A stretch of 64,000 nt of DNA from Acidobacteriota bacterium (GTDB lineage: Bacteria; Acidobacteriota; Vicinamibacteria; Vicinamibacterales; SCN-69-37): the NCBI GenBank assembly GCA_016716905.1, contig JADJUS010000022.1, positions 140,053 through 204,052 on the forward strand. The letters run 5' to 3'. Below, piece after piece: positions 8,343 to 55,614 of the stretch. The notes beneath the pieces were generated by a model. The model was not told where the DNA came from. It saw nothing but the letters and a program-made list of their open reading frames with translations, and searched no databases. Numbering within the stretch: position 1 is the stretch's first letter; every line of letters begins with the position of its first letter. The position numbers and the translations under genes are program-made.

Positions 8343-8736
8343 GGCAGGGTGATTATAAGAGATTGAGGGTTGAGGGTTGAGGATTGAGCGATTGAGGATT
8401 GGGATTGCACGCGCTTGGAAATTGAGGATTGAGGATTTGGCGATTGAAATTGCCTCATGGTGCGATGGGCGGATCGCGAGATTGCGGGATGGGGCGATTG
8501 CCGGATTTGGGATTGGATTGCGGGATTGGGATTGGATTGCGGGATTGTCGGATTGGATTGCCTGGATTGAATTGCCCATCGCACCATCAGCGATCCCACC
8601 ATCCCACCATCAGACCATCCGACAATTCCCATCCTCAATCCCAAATCAGCAATCGAGCCATCCCGATCCTCAATCGCTCAATCCTCAATCCTCAATTGCA
8701 TGGCGGATCGCTGAGCTCTCTATTGCGGGTGTCCGC
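8343..8736. repeat. 394-bp intergenic low-complexity region of GATTGAGG-type units that switches to the complementary CCTCAATC type
   Basis: By hand count, about 18 copies of the core GATTG lie in 8361-8569 and about 5 copies of CAATC in 8630-8695. There is a 14/15 inverted match between 8456-8470 and 8574-8588. Confidence 0.9.
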
Positions 8737-14694: not shown

Positions 14695-15626
14695 GACGAG
14701 CTCTCGCCTTCGGCACGGGGAAACATGCCTGCCACCGGTGGCTCATCGTCGCGCCATCGCCGGTGCATCCAGAGCCAGAGTTCGGGCTGGCGCCGCACGT
14801 ACATCTCGAGGACGTCCGTGCAGCGCTGTGTGAGCTCCACAACCGGGTCCGGAGAATCCGCGCGCGGCAATTCGATCGGATGTTCGTAGACGATGCGGCA
14901 GGTGCCGTCGGGGGACGGAATGGCAAATATCGGGATCACGGCGGCGCCAGTTCGAATCGCCAACGCGCCGACAGCGGAGGTCGTGGCGGCAGGCCGTCCG
15001 AAAAATTGAACCGACACGGCGTCGGCCGGCTGGATGTGCTGGTCGATCAGAATGGTGACCGCGTCGCCGGCACCGAGCGCGCGCAGGACGCGCCGCAGCG
15101 CGCCGCGGCGGTAAATCACCTGATTGCCGGTGCGGGTCCGCGTGTGTTCCAGCAGCGTCTGCAACTGCGGGTTGTCGAGCTTTCGCGCCAGGACGAACAT
15201 CGGCGGCAGCACCAGTGGGTGCGCGAGTCCGTAGACCTCCCACAGGCCAAAATGCCCGGTCACCAGCAACACCCCGCGGCCGGCGGCGATCGCTTCGCGC
15301 ACGCGGTCCTCGCCCTCAAAACTCACCCGGGCGCGGATCTGCTCGGGGCTCAATGTGCTGAACTTGAGCAGCAGCGTCAGCGAGCGGCCGAAGTGCGCAA
15401 ATGTCTTTCGCGCGATGGCACGGCATGCCGCCGGCGGTTTTGATGGGAACGCGGCCTGCAACTGCCGGATGGCGAGGCGCCGATGGCCGGCATCGATGGC
15501 CCAGAAGATGTGACCGATGCCGGCGCCCAGCAGGCTGACGGCCCGGTCGGGCCACGGTGCGACCATGGCCCGAACGACGACCACAATCGCGTACTCAATG
15601 CGATGACGCAGCGCGCGCGCACTCAC
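14691..15626 (-). CDS. lpxL: lipid A biosynthesis (Kdo)2-lipid IVA acyltransferase family protein
   Basis: Start set to GTG 15626, which overlaps the lpxK stop as GTGA. LPLAT/HtrB-like motifs NLQAAFP-like RQLQAAFP, LVTGHFGLWE and ILIDQH. Confidence 0.75.
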   Translation of the reverse strand: MSARALRHRIEYAIVVVVRAMVAPWPDRAVSLLGAGIGHIFWAIDAGHRRLAIRQLQAAFPSKPPAACRAIARKTFAHFGRSLTLLLKFSTLSPEQIRARVSFEGEDRVREAIAAGRGVLLVTGHFGLWEVYGLAHPLVLPPMFVLARKLDNPQLQTLLEHTRTRTGNQVIYRRGALRRVLRALGAGDAVTILIDQHIQPADAVSVQFFGRPAATTSAVGALAIRTGAAVIPIFAIPSPDGTCRIVYEHPIELPRADSPDPVVELTQRCTDVLEMYVRRQPELWLWMHRRWRDDEPPVAGMFPRAEGESSS

Positions 15627-16854
15627 GCCGGCACCGCCGACGAGCCCCCGGATCGTCCGCGAGCGGATTGGACCTGCGCTGCGAGCCACCCGGCAAATTC
15701 GGCGGCGGGCTCGATGGTGACGCGCAGGGGCCACTCGTAGACGGGCACGGGCAGTGGACGCAGCGCGCGCAGGCGAACGGCATCTTTACTTGTGGTGAGG
15801 ACACCGGCGGCGCCACCCGCGCGGACATCGCGCGCGAGGCGCGCGAGGTCCGCGCGCGTGTAGCGGTGGTGGTCGCCGGGGCCCCAGGCCCCGGCGACCA
15901 CATAGCCGGCGTCTTCGACCGCGCGGGTGAATCGCGCCGGGCCGGCGATGCCGGCCAGCGCGATCACGCGCGCGCCGGGCGCCAGCGCCGGGACGCCCGT
16001 CTCGATCGAGACGGGCGTCCCGGTGTGGCGAACGAGGCGGAAAGGGGACGGGTGTCGATCTGTGGAAAACCCGGTCACGGAAAAGACGTCGGGTGTCTTT
16101 TTGGCGGACGCAGGCAAAAAGACACCCGACGTCTTTTCCCCAGCCGGGTTTTCCACAGATCGACACCCGTCCCCCTGTGTGCCCCGGTCCTCAATCACCG
16201 CGTCGGCGCGCGCCAGCGCCGACACCGGCTCCCGCAGCGCGCCGAACGGCGCGCGGCGGCCCGTCAGGTCGCCCGGCGTCACAAGTACCAGGTCCACATC
16301 GCGCGCCATCTGCCGATGCTGAAACCCGTCGTCGAGCACCAGGGCGGTGGCCCGCAGGATGTGGCGCGCGAACGCGCCGGCGATCGCCCGCTGGTCGCAC
16401 ACCAGCACGGCGACGCCGGGCAGATCCCTGGCCAGCATCAGTGGTTCGTCGCCCGCGCGATCCACATCGGCCAGCAGGTGCCGCCCGTCCGAGACCACCA
16501 CCACGCCATCCTCTGTCCGTCGCCGGCCGTAGCCCCTGGAAAGAATCGCGGGCCGTTCACCCATTTCAAGGAGCAGCCGCGCAATGGCCGCCACAGTGGG
16601 CGTCTTCCCCCGCCCACCAAACGCGATATTCCCGACGGAGATTACGAAAGGGGACGGGTGTCGATCTGTGGAAAACCCGGCTGATGGGAAAACGACCGCT
16701 GAGCGGAAAACGACCTCTGAGGTAGTTTTTTCGGCGGAAGGGACAAAAACTACCTCAGAGGTCGTTTTCCCAGCAGCGGTCGTTTTCCCCTGAGCCGGGT
16801 TTTCCACAGATCGACACCCGTCCCCCTCTCTTCCCCGATCTCCGGTCAGCCCGT

Positions 16855-16858
<4 letters not shown>
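15623..16858 (-). CDS. lpxK: tetraacyldisaccharide 4'-kinase carrying in-frame palindromic insertions
   Basis: GTG start 16858 overlaps the waaA stop (GTGA). Motifs: P-loop VISVGNIAFGGRGKTP, SRGYG, GDEP, DDGFQH, LREP, AGIAGPARF, GDHH and TTSKDAVRL. The frame is continuous through the elements at 15987-16173 and 16650-16825. Confidence 0.8.
15987..16022. repeat. perfect 36-bp palindrome inside lpxK
   Basis: ccgggacgcccgtctcgatcgagacgggcgtcccgg equals its own reverse complement, checked base by base. Confidence 0.95.
16043..16173. mobile_element. MITE/RPE-like nested palindromic element A (131 bp)
   Basis: Perfect 31-bp terminal inverted repeats at 16043-16073 and 16143-16173. Inner hairpin is 16078-16101 / 16115-16138 with loop GGCGGACGCAGGC. 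Confidence 0.8.
16650..16825. mobile_element. MITE/RPE-like nested palindromic element B (176 bp)
   Basis: Carries the same 31-bp terminal inverted repeats as element A (16650-16680 / 16795-16825). Two further nested inverted repeats lie at 16686-16701 / 16774-16789 and 16705-16730 / 16745-16770. Confidence 0.8.
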
Positions 16859-21702: not shown

Positions 21703-21725
21703 GTCTGAGGGCTTCGCCCTCAGAC
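21703..21725 (+). terminator. stem-loop just downstream of tRNA-Leu
   Basis: gtctgagggc-ttc-gccctcagac forms a perfect 10-bp stem. There is no U-tract, so intrinsic terminator function is uncertain. Confidence 0.4.
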
Positions 21726-39701: not shown

Positions 39702-39736
39702 CCGGTGACCGCAGGCACCACGCCTGCGGTCACCGG
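39702..39736 (+). terminator. strong hairpin after the TonB receptor gene
   Basis: ccggtgaccgcaggc-accac-gcctgcggtcaccgg forms a perfect 15-bp stem 9 nt after the stop. There is no clean U-tract. Confidence 0.55.
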
Positions 39737-46463: not shown

Positions 46464-47675
46464 ATGTCTTCGCCTGCGCGGCGCCCGCTGTCCCGTCCCG
46501 ATGCGCCGCCCGGTGCCCTGCGCTGGATCCTCGTCATCGTCTTTCTGGACATGATGGGTTTGGGCCTGCTGGTGCCGGTGATCCCCCTGATCGTGCGTGA
46601 GTTTCGTGCCGACGCACTGACGATTGGCTGGCTCTCGCTGGCGTATGCGGCCGCCCAGTTTGTGACCACGCCCCTGCTTGGCGCGTGGTCAGACCGTCAT
46701 GGCCGGCGAGGCGTGCTGTTGCTCAGTTTCCTGGGTTCGGCCGTCGCGTATTTTGCATTCGGATGGGCTCCGGCCTTGTGGGTGCTCTTCGCCGGCCGGA
46801 TCGTTGATGGCCTGACCGGCGCCAACGTCGGCATGTCGCAGGCGTACATCGCCGACATTACGGAAGCCGGCCAACGTTCGCGTGCGCTGGCGCTCTCGGG
46901 TGTGGCACTCGGCACCGGATTCATCGTGGGCCCACTCGTGGGCATCGGTCTCTCGGCGTTCGGACCGCACGTGCCGGCATTTACGGCGGGAGGCCTGGCA
47001 CTGGCCAGCACGATCCTCGCATGGTGGCGGCTGCCGGAGTCACTGGCGCCTGGTACCCGGGCCGCGCCGGCGGCGACACACCAACTGAATCCGTTTGCGC
47101 CGCTCCTGCAGGCGCTCGGCCGCAGCTCCCTTCGGCCGCTCCTGATCGCGACGTTTCTCGCAAGCTTCGCCATGGCGGCGCTGCGTTCACACTTCGCGTT
47201 TTTTGCGATCGCGGTCCTGGCGTTCAGCCAGTCGGATGCCAACCGCGTCATCGCGTTCCTCGGGGTGATGATGGTCGTCGCTCAGGGCGGACTCGTCCGA
47301 CAGGCCGTGCAGCGTTGGGGCGATCACGGCACGCTTGTGGTGGGACTGGTGCTGAGTGCCATTGGGTTCGCCGGCCTCTCGGTCGCGTTCTCGCCGTCGA
47401 TGCTGTACCTGATGGTCGCGGTCACCGCCGTTGGCGTTGGCCTCGGCACCCCGACGATGGCGGCGCTCGTCTCACACCGCTCGGGTGCCATTGAGCAGGG
47501 CGTGATGCTGGGCGCTGCACAGGCGGCGGCGGCGCTCGCACAGGTCTTGGGTCCCGTCTGGGCGGGTTTTATCTTCGATCGCGCCGGGCCACAGTTTCCG
47601 TTCAGCACCGGCGCCGCCCTCGTCGCAGCCGCCCTGCTTGTCGTGACGCTCAATCGCCCGAAAAACGACCTCTGA
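46464..47675 (+). CDS. MFS transporter (TCR/Tet-like)
   Basis: 12 TM helices with MFS motif A: GAWSDRHGRRGVLLLS. Confidence 0.85.
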   Translation: MSSPARRPLSRPDAPPGALRWILVIVFLDMMGLGLLVPVIPLIVREFRADALTIGWLSLAYAAAQFVTTPLLGAWSDRHGRRGVLLLSFLGSAVAYFAFGWAPALWVLFAGRIVDGLTGANVGMSQAYIADITEAGQRSRALALSGVALGTGFIVGPLVGIGLSAFGPHVPAFTAGGLALASTILAWWRLPESLAPGTRAAPAATHQLNPFAPLLQALGRSSLRPLLIATFLASFAMAALRSHFAFFAIAVLAFSQSDANRVIAFLGVMMVVAQGGLVRQAVQRWGDHGTLVVGLVLSAIGFAGLSVAFSPSMLYLMVAVTAVGVGLGTPTMAALVSHRSGAIEQGVMLGAAQAAAALAQVLGPVWAGFIFDRAGPQFPFSTGAALVAAALLVVTLNRPKNDL

Positions 47676-47687
47676 GGTCGTTTTCTT
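47661..47687 (+). terminator. intrinsic-terminator-like hairpin straddling the MFS stop codon
   Basis: aaaacgacctc-t-gaggtcgtttt followed by cttc (T-rich). The sequence is related to the inner arm of element B in lpxK. Confidence 0.6.
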
Positions 47688-54241: not shown

Positions 54242-54646
54242 ATGGTTAACAAGACCTCCACCCTGCTGGGGCCGTTGGAATGGCGTGTGCTCGACGCCCT
54301 GTGGGCCCGGGGCGCCGCCGCCACCGTGCGCGACCTCCAGCCTGAGTTTTCCGACATCGCGTACACCACGCTCATGACCACCCTGGACCGCCTGCACCGC
54401 AAGCGGGTGCTCGCGCGCACCAAAGAAGGTCGCGCCTTCGTCTACGAGCCGGTACACGGCCGGGCCGCGTTCGACTCACGCCGGGCCACACAGGCCCTGC
54501 TGGCGGCCGTTGAACGTGGTGGACCATCGGCCACGCCGGTCCTGTCGTGCTTTGTCGAGGCGCTCGGCGACCACGACGAGGCGTTGCTCAGTGAGTTGGA
54601 GACATTGGTTCGCGCGCGCCGCGCGCATCGCGAGAACGCTGAATGA
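54242..54646 (+). CDS. BlaI/MecI/CopY family transcriptional repressor
   Basis: Start at ATG 54242. Winged-helix LGPLEWRVLDALWARGAAATVRDL...YTTLMTTLDRLHRKRVLARTKEGRAFVYEP. Confidence 0.85.
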   Translation: MVNKTSTLLGPLEWRVLDALWARGAAATVRDLQPEFSDIAYTTLMTTLDRLHRKRVLARTKEGRAFVYEPVHGRAAFDSRRATQALLAAVERGGPSATPVLSCFVEALGDHDEALLSELETLVRARRAHRENAE

Positions 54647-55614
54647 CATTTCTTGTGCGATGCCTCGTGCTGGCGCTCGCCGCGTTCGGTGTGGCCGCCC
54701 TCGTGACATCGGTGGTCATCGCCGTCACGTGGTGGCGGAGGACGCCGGCCGGGTCTGCGGCGGTTCGCGCGGACGCCCTGCTGCGGCTGCGCCTCATTCC
54801 TTCAGGCGCAGCCGCGCTCGCGGGCCTGTTTGCGCTCATCGGCCTGTGGCGTTTTGAATCGCGTGATGTGGACGAGGTCCTCGGCTGGACGGTCCTCGCG
54901 AGTGCGGCCACCGGCGCCTGGCTCATGTCGGTATTCCTGACCCGACTGTGGCGCATGCGGCTCGAGACGCGCCGACTCCTGTCATCCTGGCTCGCAGACG
55001 CCACCGCGCTCTCGCTGCCTGGTGTGACGGTGCCGGCTTTCCGCATTGATTCCGGCTTCCCGGTGGTGGCAGTCGTCGGCATCTTCCGCCCCATACTCGT
55101 TGTGGACGGCACCGTGCTCGATGGGTGTAGTGAGGACGAACTCGCGGCCATCCTCGCACACGAACAAGGGCACCTGCGCCGTTGGGACAACCTGCGCCGC
55201 GCCCTCTTTGCGGCAGCGCCCGATCCGCTGTCGCACACCCCGGCAGGTATCCGGTTGCGTGACGACTGGCGCGTGGCAACCGAAGAAGCGGCCGACGATG
55301 TGGCTGCCGAGCGCGGAGAGAATGCCCGGGTCCACCTGGCGAGCGCGCTGCTTCGTGTGGCTCGCCTCGCTCCACGGGCCGCCCAGCAGCCTTCCGGAGC
55401 CTTCCACGGCGCACAACTACCCGCAAGCGCACTGTATCGCGGTGAGAGCGTCGAGGGCCGTGTCCGGCGGCTGATTGACGCGGCTCCGGCTGCTGCGGGC
55501 CGCGCGAGCCGCGGCCTGGGCCTTGGCCTCACTGCGGCGATGGTCACGATCGCTCTCGCCTTCCAACAGGACATTCACGACCTGATGGAAGTGGTGATCG
55601 CGATTCTTCCGTAG
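54643..55614 (+). CDS. M56 (BlaR1-like) membrane metallopeptidase without a recognisable C-terminal sensor domain
   Basis: ATGA overlap with blaI-like. 4 TM helices and the HEXXH site LAAILAHEQGHLRRWD. Only 323 aa. Confidence 0.75.
   Translation: MTFLVRCLVLALAAFGVAALVTSVVIAVTWWRRTPAGSAAVRADALLRLRLIPSGAAALAGLFALIGLWRFESRDVDEVLGWTVLASAATGAWLMSVFLTRLWRMRLETRRLLSSWLADATALSLPGVTVPAFRIDSGFPVVAVVGIFRPILVVDGTVLDGCSEDELAAILAHEQGHLRRWDNLRRALFAAAPDPLSHTPAGIRLRDDWRVATEEAADDVAAERGENARVHLASALLRVARLAPRAAQQPSGAFHGAQLPASALYRGESVEGRVRRLIDAAPAAAGRASRGLGLGLTAAMVTIALAFQQDIHDLMEVVIAILP

What the first reader, a model, noticed from the sequence alone, without database searches (positions are those of the whole stretch)
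16043..16173. 131-bp nested-hairpin palindromic element sits in-frame inside the essential lipid A kinase gene lpxK
Perfect 31-bp terminal inverted repeats, GGGGACGGGTGTCGATCTGTGGAAAACCCGG at 16043-16073 and its exact reverse complement at 16143-16173, enclose a second 24-bp hairpin. That inner hairpin is 16078-16101 / 16115-16138 with loop GGCGGACGCAGGC. The minus-strand lpxK frame reads straight through the element. LpxK-like sequence (...DDGFQH...LREPVSALARADAVIE) is followed by about 48 element-encoded residues (GTQGDGCRSVENPAGEKTSGVFLPASAKKTPDVFSVTGFSTDRHPSPF). LpxK-like sequence (...ALAGIAGPARF...GDHH...TTSKDAVRL) then resumes in the same frame. In-frame palindromic insertion into housekeeping genes is the known behaviour of Rickettsia palindromic elements. 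I know of no equivalent described for a high-GC, Acidobacteria-like genome or for lipid A genes.
Basis: partly seen in the sequence, partly recalled or inferred. Interest (0 to 1): 0.8.

Follow-up and report, generated by a model that had tools for sequence, protein, structure and literature searches.

The report
In-frame palindromic repeat inside lpxK
The hairpin inside the lipid A kinase gene is real and is one copy of a small palindromic repeat scattered through a group of Acidobacteria genomes; it reads in frame like the Rickettsia elements, which is a known kind of event, but this repeat family and its piling-up in lpxK appear undescribed.

Summary
A second copy with identical arms (16650-16825, 176 nt) lies in the same ORF just upstream of the P-loop.

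A metagenome scan found the arms in about 100 contigs. That gave 92 non-redundant copies; only 3 of 85 loci are lpxK. The copies have no target-site duplication and show strong compensatory variation in the stem. About 15% read in frame through other genes (UvrC, MetH linker, histidine ammonia-lyase-type lyase, acyl-CoA ligase, DUF72, MFS loop).

So this is a dispersed, non-autonomous palindromic repeat that behaves like Rickettsia RPEs and intragenic REPs. In-frame REPs are already documented in free-living high-GC bacteria, so the kind is known and only the family is new.

The AlphaFold model keeps the LpxK fold. Confidence is low only in the element-encoded stretches.

The same two lpxK sites carry related but different hairpins in orthologues down to about 58% identity. 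And lpxK also holds extra perfect palindromes within conserved codons, about 25-fold above background. That enrichment is unexplained.

The parts
15623..16858 (-). lpxK ORF (411 codons) containing both element copies. The GTG start at 16858 overlaps the waaA stop (GTGA).
   Evidence: The P-loop, DDGFQH, GDHH and TTSKD motifs are intact.
16044..16174 (.). Copy 1 core (131 nt), the element in the finding, at site A in a variable linker of LpxK.
   Evidence: It encodes residues about 229-272, which are modelled at pLDDT <50.
16044..16074 (+). Copy 1 left outer arm (31 nt).
   Evidence: exact match, 0 expected by chance.
16144..16174 (-). Copy 1 right outer arm, the exact reverse complement of the left arm.
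16079..16139 (.). Inner module X: 25-bp stem (GGAAAAGACGTCGGGTGTCTTTTTG) with an 11-nt loop at 16104-16114.
   Evidence: The same module is nested in L001/L004 and stands alone in L020, L070, L086 and L108.
16175..16192 (-). One-sided extension of copy 1 (sense strand GAGGACCGGGGCACACAG, encoding EDRGTQ).
   Evidence: A GATCGGGG.A.A.AG-type flank recurs at one end of about 40% of copies.
16650..16825 (.). Copy 2 core (176 nt) at site B, between the waaA stop and the LpxK P-loop. It has three nested layers: outer 16650-16682/16793-16825, middle 16686-16701/16774-16789, and inner module Y 16705-16730/16745-16770 with loop 16731-16744.
   Evidence: -152.3 kcal/mol, z = -21. Only the lpxK frame is free of stops among the six frames.
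16826..16843 (-). One-sided extension of copy 2 (sense strand GGAGATCGGGGAAGAGAG, encoding GDRGRE).
16805..16807 (-). GTG inside the left arm of copy 2. It is the only in-frame start other than 16858 that lies upstream of the P-loop.
   Evidence: NCBI's annotation of the near-identical protein MBK9241873.1 (MENPAQ...) starts here.
15988..16023 (.). Perfect 36-bp palindrome (18-bp stem, no loop) in conserved lpxK codons (TGTPVSIETGVPA).
15869..15901 (.). Perfect 15-bp hairpin in conserved lpxK codons (VVAGAWGPGDH).
15818..15856 (.). Near-perfect 18-bp hairpin in conserved lpxK codons (RADLARLARDVRA). It is a perfect 23-bp stem in L004 and 20 bp in L108.
47662..47684 (.). Free-standing small palindrome AAAACGACCTCTGAGGTCGTTTT, related to module Y. 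The stop codon of ORF 46464..47675 lies in its loop.

Best explanation
Copy 1 (and copy 2) are members of a dispersed, non-coding, non-autonomous family of palindromic repeats found in a clade of high-GC Acidobacteriota, probably Vicinamibacteria-like.

Family core: 5'-AR-GGGGACGGGT[G/C]TCGA[T/C]CTGTGGAAAACTC - variable loop - GAGTTTTCCACAG[A/G]TCGA[C/G]ACCCGTCCCC-YT-3'. The basic sizes are 71-87 nt. Larger forms carry smaller palindromic modules (X or Y) nested in the loop, and X and Y are themselves free-standing REP-like repeats.

Most copies lie between genes, often just after a stop codon. A minority sit inside genes, where they persist only if the reading frame stays open. The arms have no stop codon in any frame.

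In lpxK, copy 1 sits in a variable linker after the ...ADAVI strand, ahead of the C-terminal part of the protein. It is translated as a disordered loop of about 44-50 residues that leaves the kinase fold intact. Copy 2 sits on the waaA|lpxK junction and supplies the N-terminus of the protein.

Shown: repeat-family membership, dispersal, absence of target-site duplication, stem covariation, open frame, and the position in a low-confidence loop.

Inferred: that the insert is actually translated and tolerated. Also inferred is that spread depends on an enzyme supplied in trans that recognises a hairpin or inverted repeat and leaves no duplication. An HUH/Y1 (RAYT/TIRYT-type) transposase is the leading candidate, at perhaps 35% likelihood. 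Occupancy of the lpxK sites is old, with turnover of the inner modules by recombination with other copies.
For: Real structure: exact arms at four places, 0 expected by chance; fold energies of -115.9 and -152.3 kcal/mol.

Dispersal: the pattern GGGGACGGGTSTCGNNCNGTGGA hit 100 metagenome stretches. These gave 118 paired-arm calls, reduced to 111 elements and 92 non-redundant copies. Only L066, L090 and L101 are lpxK. Eight large contigs of a single sample (Ga0105044) carry copies.

Mobility or polymorphism: L003 has a copy between the hldE kinase and adenylyltransferase genes, where L002 and L004 have overlapping genes and no element.

No target-site duplication at any offset or length.

Stem covariation: 96.6% of cells paired, 13 pairs changed on both sides, 0 of 500 shuffles as high, and slid controls far lower.

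In-frame copies in other genes: Lyase_aromatic, the MetH interdomain linker, AMP-binding, UvrC, DUF72 and an MFS loop, using all three reading frames of the arms.

Protein: the AF2 model has mean pLDDT 80.4, below 50 only at residues 1-56, 230-237 and 241-263. The best fold match is A. aeolicus LpxK.

Frame constraint: only the lpxK frame of copy 2 is open, and no start codon lies between copy 2 and the P-loop.

All 14 members of the >=90% identity cluster carry copy 1.

Modules X and Y stand alone elsewhere.
Against: No transposase or RAYT/TIRYT gene was found next to any arm. A crude motif scan of 765 kb was negative, so the mobilising mechanism is untested.

No truly empty lpxK site A was found among close relatives, so a single insertion event cannot be dated or its junction defined.

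The coding/non-coding classification of flanks rests on my own codon-score heuristic.

Translation of the insert is inferred only. One 3.2-Mb assembly has a frameshift inside the element (P0128/P0131); this could be a sequencing error or could mean the insert is not simply read through.

Two copies in one 1.2-kb gene, with no other copy in 64 kb, are not expected from random insertion. Neither are the recurrent sites in the LPS operon across deep divergence.
Confidence: 0.75

Rival explanations
1. The hairpins in the LPS-core operon are kept because they do something. As RNA or DNA structures they would set relative expression, mRNA processing or stability, or translational coupling of waaA, lpxK and the downstream genes. 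On this view the lpxK copies are co-opted regulatory elements rather than neutral passengers.
For: Three sites in the same operon are occupied recurrently: the waaA|lpxK junction, lpxK site A, and the hldE kinase|adenylyltransferase junction. Different hairpin families fill them in lineages from about 57 to 100% LpxK identity.

Both copies in the 64-kb window lie in lpxK.

In outgroup L111 the called lpxK start lies inside a 112-nt palindrome.

Palindromes not belonging to the repeat families are about 25-fold enriched in lpxK.
Against: There are no expression data.

Hairpins of -116 to -152 kcal/mol inside a coding region would be expected to be RNase III targets and to hinder translation (my own knowledge, not tested here). 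That fits down-regulation at best.

The same family sits in more than 80 unrelated contexts.

Hairpin type differs between close relatives, so no specific sequence is conserved.
Confidence: 0.2
2. The segment is an ancestral, native part of this LpxK lineage, not an insertion of repeated DNA.
For: Related peptides (GDG[CS]RSVEN...FST.RHPSP) occupy the same site in many orthologues down to about 60% identity.
Against: The arms have the same sequence at site A, at site B and in dozens of unrelated loci.

Close relatives carry different hairpins at the site: outer arms only, Y only, or X only.

Orthologues at 57% identity or less, and A. aeolicus LpxK, lack the segment.

The encoded peptide is used in all three frames in other genes.
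Confidence: 0.03
3. It is a classical MITE: a deletion derivative of a DDE-transposase insertion sequence, mobilised through its terminal inverted repeats.
For: It has long and very well conserved terminal inverted repeats, has no coding capacity, and is dispersed in many copies.
Against: No target-site duplication was found at any offset (0-4) or length (2-8) in 87 copies.

No pair of arms was found flanking a transposase-sized segment.

The whole element, not just its ends, is a hairpin with covarying stem positions.
Confidence: 0.08
4. The element is skipped or removed at expression, by translational bypassing as in T4 gene 60 or the mitochondrial 'byp' elements, or by RNA processing. Mature LpxK would then lack the insert.
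For: A very stable hairpin lies inside the ORF. One assembly shows a frameshift inside the element with the rest of the gene unchanged (P0128/P0131).
Against: The frame is kept open through every intragenic copy examined. For copy 2 it is the only open frame of six, which would not be needed if the element were skipped.

No matched take-off and landing codons are evident at the ends.

The frameshift may be a homopolymer error in a long-read assembly.
Confidence: 0.04
5. Assembly artefact: palindromic chimeras created by the assembler or by amplification.
For: Assemblers do mishandle these palindromes. The P0132 contig is a fold-back (antisense lpxK, then the element, then sense lpxK), and P0125/P0132 show the centre of copy 1 inverted.
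Against: The same element at the same site, with normal flanks on both sides, appears in independent ENA, JGI, NCBI and Logan assemblies, including contigs of 0.3 to 3.2 Mb.
Confidence: 0.02

Closest known systems
Rickettsia palindromic elements (RPE; Ogata et al. 2000, 2002, as cited in PMC10969869 and PMC3733652)
   Same: They are non-coding palindromic repeats of about 100-150 bp, dispersed through the genome. Many copies are read in frame inside housekeeping genes, two copies in one gene occur, and the encoded peptide lies outside the conserved fold.
   Different: The sequence family and host are unrelated: free-living, 65% GC Acidobacteriota. Only about 15% of copies here are intragenic. 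This family is built from nested modules (outer arms plus X or Y). No sequence relationship to RPEs was tested.
REP / REPIN elements and intragenic REPs (Di Nocera et al. 2013, PMC3733652)
   Same: Both are hairpin repeats without target duplication, mostly extragenic, often abutting stop codons. They occur as inverted dimers forming long hairpins. Subfamilies differ by compensatory stem changes. In-frame copies occur in DNA-repair and other genes, including UvrC here, and different repeats can occupy the same site in orthologues.
   Different: The ends read AR-GGGG rather than carrying a GTAG or CGTC unpaired tag. The 31-nt arm of the basic form is not itself a stem-loop. No RAYT was found beside any copy.
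TIR repeats / TIRtrons with TIRYT transposases, including an Acidobacteria-specific TIRYT group (PMC3733652)
   Same: These are long inverted repeats, some forming moderately abundant families organised as dimers. Their hosts include Acidobacteria. Several of those terminal repeats share the motif GGGGWSAS; the arms here start GGGGACGG, matching 7 of 8 positions.
   Different: No TIRYT gene flanked by these arms was found, and the motif match is imperfect. The link is a lead only.
Correia/NEMIS, ERIC and other bacterial MITEs (PMC10969869)
   Same: They are small inverted-repeat elements that fold into strong RNA hairpins, are co-transcribed with genes, and occasionally form in-frame fusions.
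   Different: Classical DDE-type MITEs leave target-site duplications (for Correia elements a TA, from my own knowledge). None is seen here.

Membership tests
RPE-like in-frame palindromic repeat (functional class) | Palindromic repeat of about 100-150 bp present in many copies | tested here: met
   92 non-redundant copies of 71-176 nt.
RPE-like in-frame palindromic repeat (functional class) | Copies read in frame within unrelated protein-coding genes | tested here: met
   LpxK, UvrC, MetH, aromatic lyase, AMP-binding enzyme, DUF72 and MFS.
RPE-like in-frame palindromic repeat (functional class) | Insert lies outside the conserved fold, in a surface loop or linker | tested here: met
   pLDDT <50 only in the element-encoded segments; inserts fall between Pfam domains. 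These are models, not experiments.
Rickettsia RPE families proper | Sequence homology to RPE consensus sequences; Rickettsia host | not tested
   No RPE consensus was available to compare. The host is an Acidobacteriota MAG, so it is not filed as an RPE.
REP / REPIN | Conserved unpaired GTAG (or CGTC) tag at one end of each unit | tested here: not met
   the flank is A (88%) then R, followed by GGGG. GTAG occurs at 2 of 178 ends.
REP / REPIN | No target-site duplication | tested here: met
REP / REPIN | Each unit is a short imperfect palindrome, and two inverted units form the long hairpin | tested here: inconclusive
   The basic arm is not self-complementary. About 10 copies have an extended arm (GTTTTCCACAGAT-AGGGGGACGGGTCTCG-ATCTGTGGAAAAC) that is self-complementary.
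REP / REPIN | A cognate RAYT gene flanked by the repeats | not testable with these tools
   None was found in 765 kb of fetched loci. The complete source genome could not be scanned.
TIRtron / TIRYT-associated TIR repeats | Terminal repeats flank a TIRYT gene; GGGGWSAS motif in the repeat | tested here: inconclusive
   The arm starts GGGGACGG, matching 7 of 8 positions. No TIRYT gene was seen.
Classical (DDE-type) MITE | Terminal inverted repeats | tested here: met
Classical (DDE-type) MITE | Target-site duplication flanking the element | tested here: not met
   observed counts equal the shuffled controls at every offset and length.
Rfam RNA families | Match reaching a family's gathering score | tested here: not met
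   only sub-threshold matches to miRNA-precursor hairpin models, on both strands.

The most novel reading that the evidence does not exclude
The hairpins are not just tolerated parasites. Under this reading, lpxK and the LPS-core operon are a conserved locus where long hairpins are actively generated or selected. Three operon sites stay occupied across deep divergence by interchangeable palindromic modules. Even conserved LpxK codons have been rewritten into perfect palindromes, for example AGIAGPARVARGAADAG in L108 against the clade consensus AGIAGPxRFTRAVxDAG. That would point to a locus-specific mechanism acting on an essential lipid A gene: hairpin-templated mutation, or selection for mRNA or DNA structure that controls lipid A kinase dosage.
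Probability: 0.2. Interest if true: 0.7.

Novelty: new member of a known kind. Interest (0 to 1): 0.5.

Why it matters
It extends the RPE/intragenic-REP phenomenon, selfish palindromic DNA surviving as extra protein loops, to Acidobacteriota and to an essential lipid A enzyme.

It has a practical consequence for annotation. Gene callers truncate this LpxK after its P-loop or start it inside the repeat, and assemblers produce fold-back chimeras at these sites.

The family's modular, nested build and the absence of target duplications make it a useful case for studying how hairpin repeats spread.

The unexplained concentration of palindromes in lpxK is the part that could lead somewhere new, if it reflects regulation or a templated mutation process.

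Tried and rejected
- Rfam scan of the region gave only sub-threshold miRNA-like hairpin hits on both strands, which is uninformative.
- A protein search with a concatenated three-frame translation of the element returned only an antisense ORF of lpxK. The word index did not even recover P0001, so the negative result carries no weight.
- A HMMER search of 1.84 billion cluster representatives with the 53-residue insert found only P0007 (an LpxK) and an irrelevant tandem-repeat protein. Clustering at 50% identity hides insert-bearing members.
- The genome-contig scan with an exact 20-mer found a single MAG, Baikal-deep-G11, again in lpxK. This briefly suggested an lpxK-specific feature, until the degenerate metagenome scan showed dispersal.
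- A TA target duplication (IS630/Correia-like) was considered because many flanks read TAG/TAA...CTA/TTA. It was rejected: TA is present at both ends in only 12 of 89 copies, and no direct repeat exceeds the shuffles.
- Position 11 of the arm was considered as an orientation marker and rejected. It simply defines two symmetric subfamilies, G-C in 55 copies and C-G in 27.
- The search for an autonomous parent or transposase found nothing: lone arms, neighbouring ORFs, and RAYT motif regexes. The viral-contig scan gave 0 hits.
- Literature searches by arm sequence and by Vicinamibacteria plus palindromic repeat found no description of this family.
- attC sites, CRISPR repeats, inteins and introns were considered from the anatomy and dropped. 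There are no R'/R'' cores, no arrays, and no coding capacity or splice signals. This rests on my own knowledge and was not tested.

Full report
**Observation**

The element exists, one base to the right of the stated coordinates.
- The 31-nt arm GGGGACGGGTGTCGATCTGTGGAAAACCCGG matches exactly at 16044-16074 (+) and 16144-16174 (-). None is expected in shuffles.
- The inner hairpin is 25 bp, at 16079-16103 and 16115-16139, with an 11-nt loop.
- As RNA the 131 nt fold into a single hairpin of -115.9 kcal/mol, z = -17.5.
- The minus-strand ORF 15623..16858 reads straight through.
- The ORF is LpxK: PF02606 orthologues, A. aeolicus LpxK by sequence, and by fold of an AlphaFold model.

The same arm occurs at two more places, 16650-16680 and 16795-16825. 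These bound a second, 176-nt copy in the same ORF, just upstream of the P-loop VISVGNIAFGGRGKT. Copy 2 has three nested layers and folds at -152.3 kcal/mol. No other arm copy lies in the 64-kb window.

**What it is**

An exact 20-mer scan of 185,579 species genomes found one other locus, a Baikal Acidobacteria MAG, again in lpxK. That result suggested something specific to lpxK.

A degenerate scan of metagenome contigs reversed that impression. It gave 100 matching stretches, 118 paired-arm calls, 111 elements after mis-paired arm calls were removed, and 92 non-redundant copies. Only 3 of 85 loci were lpxK. Eight large contigs of one sample each carry copies.

The family has these features:
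- The core reads AR-GGGGACGGGT[G/C]TCGA[T/C]CTGTGGAAAACTC, then a loop, then the reverse complement.
- Size classes are 71, 76 and 84-87 nt.
- Longer forms of 97-176 nt have smaller palindromes nested in the loop. Module Y is AAACGACCTCTGAGGTAGTTTT and module X is AAAAGACGTCGGGTGTCTTTTT.
- X and Y also stand alone, as small REP-like hairpins and dimers. One such hairpin is at window 47662-47684, with a stop codon in its loop.
- About 40% of copies carry a one-sided roughly 17-nt extension of the type GAGATCGGGGAAnAnAG. Both lpxK copies have it on the upstream side.

Stem positions vary by compensatory double changes. In total 96.6% of cells are paired and 13 pairs change on both sides. None of 500 shuffles reaches this, and the slid controls are far lower.

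There is no target-site duplication at any offset or length.

One occupied-versus-empty comparison exists. L003 has a copy between the hldE kinase and adenylyltransferase genes, where L002 and L004 have overlapping genes and no element.

**Genomic context**

By a codon-score heuristic of my own, about 15% of non-redundant copies are read through in frame with coding-like sequence on both sides.

Their hosts, identified by Pfam, are LpxK, an aromatic amino-acid lyase, the MetH interdomain linker, an AMP-binding ligase, UvrC, DUF72 and the central loop of an MFS transporter. One further copy sits on a MeaB|glyoxalase gene junction.

All three reading frames of the arms are used. This argues against any function of the encoded peptide itself.

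Of 167 unique element ends, 40 abut a converging ORF that stops within 30 nt. That is a typical REP or terminator-like position.

**Effect on LpxK**

The AlphaFold model, built from 88 sequences, has mean pLDDT 80.4. Confidence falls below 50 only at residues 1-56 (copy 2) and at 230-237 and 241-263 (copy 1).

Copy 1 falls after the strand ending ...ADAVIE and before the C-terminal part of the protein. In A. aeolicus LpxK this stretch is about 30 residues shorter.

For copy 2, only two in-frame start codons lie upstream of the P-loop: GTG 16858, which overlaps the waaA stop, and GTG 16807, which lies inside the arm. At least 54 element-encoded residues must therefore be translated if the kinase has a P-loop. 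Only the lpxK frame of copy 2 is free of stops.

Gene callers nonetheless start the protein after the P-loop (P0001, P0003, P0122). NCBI's annotation starts it in the arm (P0124 = MBK9241873.1).

**Evolutionary pattern**

Orthologues from about 58 to 100% identity carry hairpin-derived peptides at the same two sites. The hairpin type varies even among close relatives:

| Sequence | Site A | Site B |
|---|---|---|
| Window | outer arms + X | outer arms + middle layer + Y |
| L004 / L001 | Y within decayed outer arms | outer arms + X |
| L002 | outer arms only | not listed |
| L003 | outer arms only | not listed |

More distant lineages carry X only, Y only, or other families at these sites.

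Orthologues at 57% identity or less lack a hairpin at site A. Even so, outgroup L111 has a related 112-nt palindrome on the waaA|lpxK junction.

I read this as old occupancy of both sites, with turnover by recombination with other copies in the genome. That reading is an inference.

All 14 members of the >=90% identity cluster carry copy 1. Two of them show its centre inverted, and one has a frameshift inside it. At least one of these contigs is a fold-back chimera, so these variants need reads to confirm them.

**Mechanism**

Shown: a dispersed hairpin repeat, without coding capacity, without target duplication, and with covarying stems.

Inferred: mobilisation in trans by an enzyme that recognises the hairpin or inverted repeat. 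HUH/Y1 transposases of the RAYT/TIRYT type are the best candidates, for three reasons from PMC3733652. They leave no duplication. An Acidobacteria-specific TIRYT group exists. Several TIRYT-associated terminal repeats share GGGGWSAS, while the arms here start GGGGACGG.

No such gene was found in 765 kb of fetched loci. I put this step at about 35%.

**Comparison with what is known**

Functionally this behaves like the Rickettsia RPEs and the intragenic REPs.

It fails the GTAG/CGTC tag test for REPs and the target-duplication test for DDE-type MITEs. It cannot be filed as an RPE proper.

In-frame REPs were already reported in Opitutus terrae, Thauera, Xanthomonas and Stenotrophomonas. That report includes two inserts per gene, inserts in uvr genes, and same-site inserts in orthologues (PMC3733652). 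A 2024 review calls in-frame MITE fusions not unusual (PMC10969869).

Searches by arm sequence and by taxon found no description of this family.

Verdict: a new member of a known kind.

**What remains unexplained**

lpxK is a palindrome hotspot beyond the inserted elements.
- In the window, 5 of the 8 hairpins scoring 11 or more lie in lpxK, which is 1.9% of the sequence. Markov-simulated sequences give about 1.2 per 64 kb.
- Three of those five sit in conserved codons: RADLARLARDVRA, VVAGAWGPGDH and TGTPVSIETGVPA.
- The same positions are palindromic in L002, L003 and L004.
- In the 61%-identical L108, 9 hairpins fill 985 nt, against 1 in the other 20 kb. There, residues depart from the clade consensus in the direction that perfects a palindrome.
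- Across all fetched DNA, hairpins not belonging to the repeat families occur at 0.48 per 10 kb in the background and at 12 per 10 kb in lpxK. The lpxK cases are not all independent.

Candidate explanations are hairpin-templated mutation and selection for mRNA structure in the LPS operon. Neither was tested, and neither explains why only lpxK is affected.

Noticed in passing
window 16650-16825 (with extension to 16843): A second copy of the same element with 100% identical arms lies in the same lpxK ORF, directly upstream of the P-loop. It has three nested hairpin layers. It must be at least partly translated, because no start codon lies between it and the P-loop.
   Followed up: yes
window 15818-15856, 15869-15901, 15988-16023: Three further perfect or near-perfect palindromes lie within conserved LpxK codons. 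The enrichment recurs in orthologues L002-L004 and L108 and is absent from outgroup L111. No cause was established.
   Followed up: partly
L003 9371-9469; L108 14697-14751: The junction between the hldE kinase and adenylyltransferase genes, in the same LPS operon, is occupied by an outer-arm element in L003 and by an X hairpin in L108. It is empty in L002 and L004, where the two genes overlap. No arm or strong hairpin was found elsewhere in the window's LPS operon either. This is a third recurrent site.
   Followed up: partly
window 16594-16858; proteins P0001, P0003, P0122, P0124: Automatic gene calls for this LpxK start after the P-loop or inside the repeat arm. The whole clade also lacks the N-terminal hydrophobic helix seen in my recalled E. 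coli LpxK sequence.
   Followed up: partly
proteins P0125, P0132, P0128/P0131 (>=90% identity cluster of the window LpxK): Three kinds of variant appear in the cluster: the centre of copy 1 inverted, a fold-back chimeric contig at copy 2, and a frameshift inside copy 1 in a 3.2-Mb contig. Real polymorphism cannot be separated from assembly or sequencing error without reads.
   Followed up: no
window 47662-47684: The small palindrome AAAACGACCTCTGAGGTCGTTTT has the TGA stop of ORF 46464..47675 in its loop. It is a free-standing relative of module Y, in a terminator-like position.
   Followed up: partly
window 39702-39736, 21703-21725, 54783-54815: Other strong hairpins: a 15-bp stem 9 nt after the stop of a large outer-membrane-receptor-like ORF, a 10-bp stem after what looks like a tRNA 3' end, and a 12-bp stem in frame inside ORF 54643..55614.
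   Followed up: no
window about 8490-8700: A degenerate inverted repeat rich in GGATTG on one side and CAATCC/CCATC on the other lies between two minus-strand ORFs. It is unrelated to the lpxK element.
   Followed up: no
L111 9974-10085: The outgroup lpxK (57% identity) has a 112-nt palindrome on the waaA|lpxK junction. It carries the GTTTTCCACAG / CTGTGGAAAAC motif in the opposite order and contains the called lpxK start codon.
   Followed up: partly
L008 and L010/L034/L049/L057: A conserved protein of unknown function (no Pfam match for the L010 copy) carries outer-arm elements in frame at the same position in two diverged lineages, two in tandem in L008. This is a second example of same-site occupancy.
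   Followed up: no
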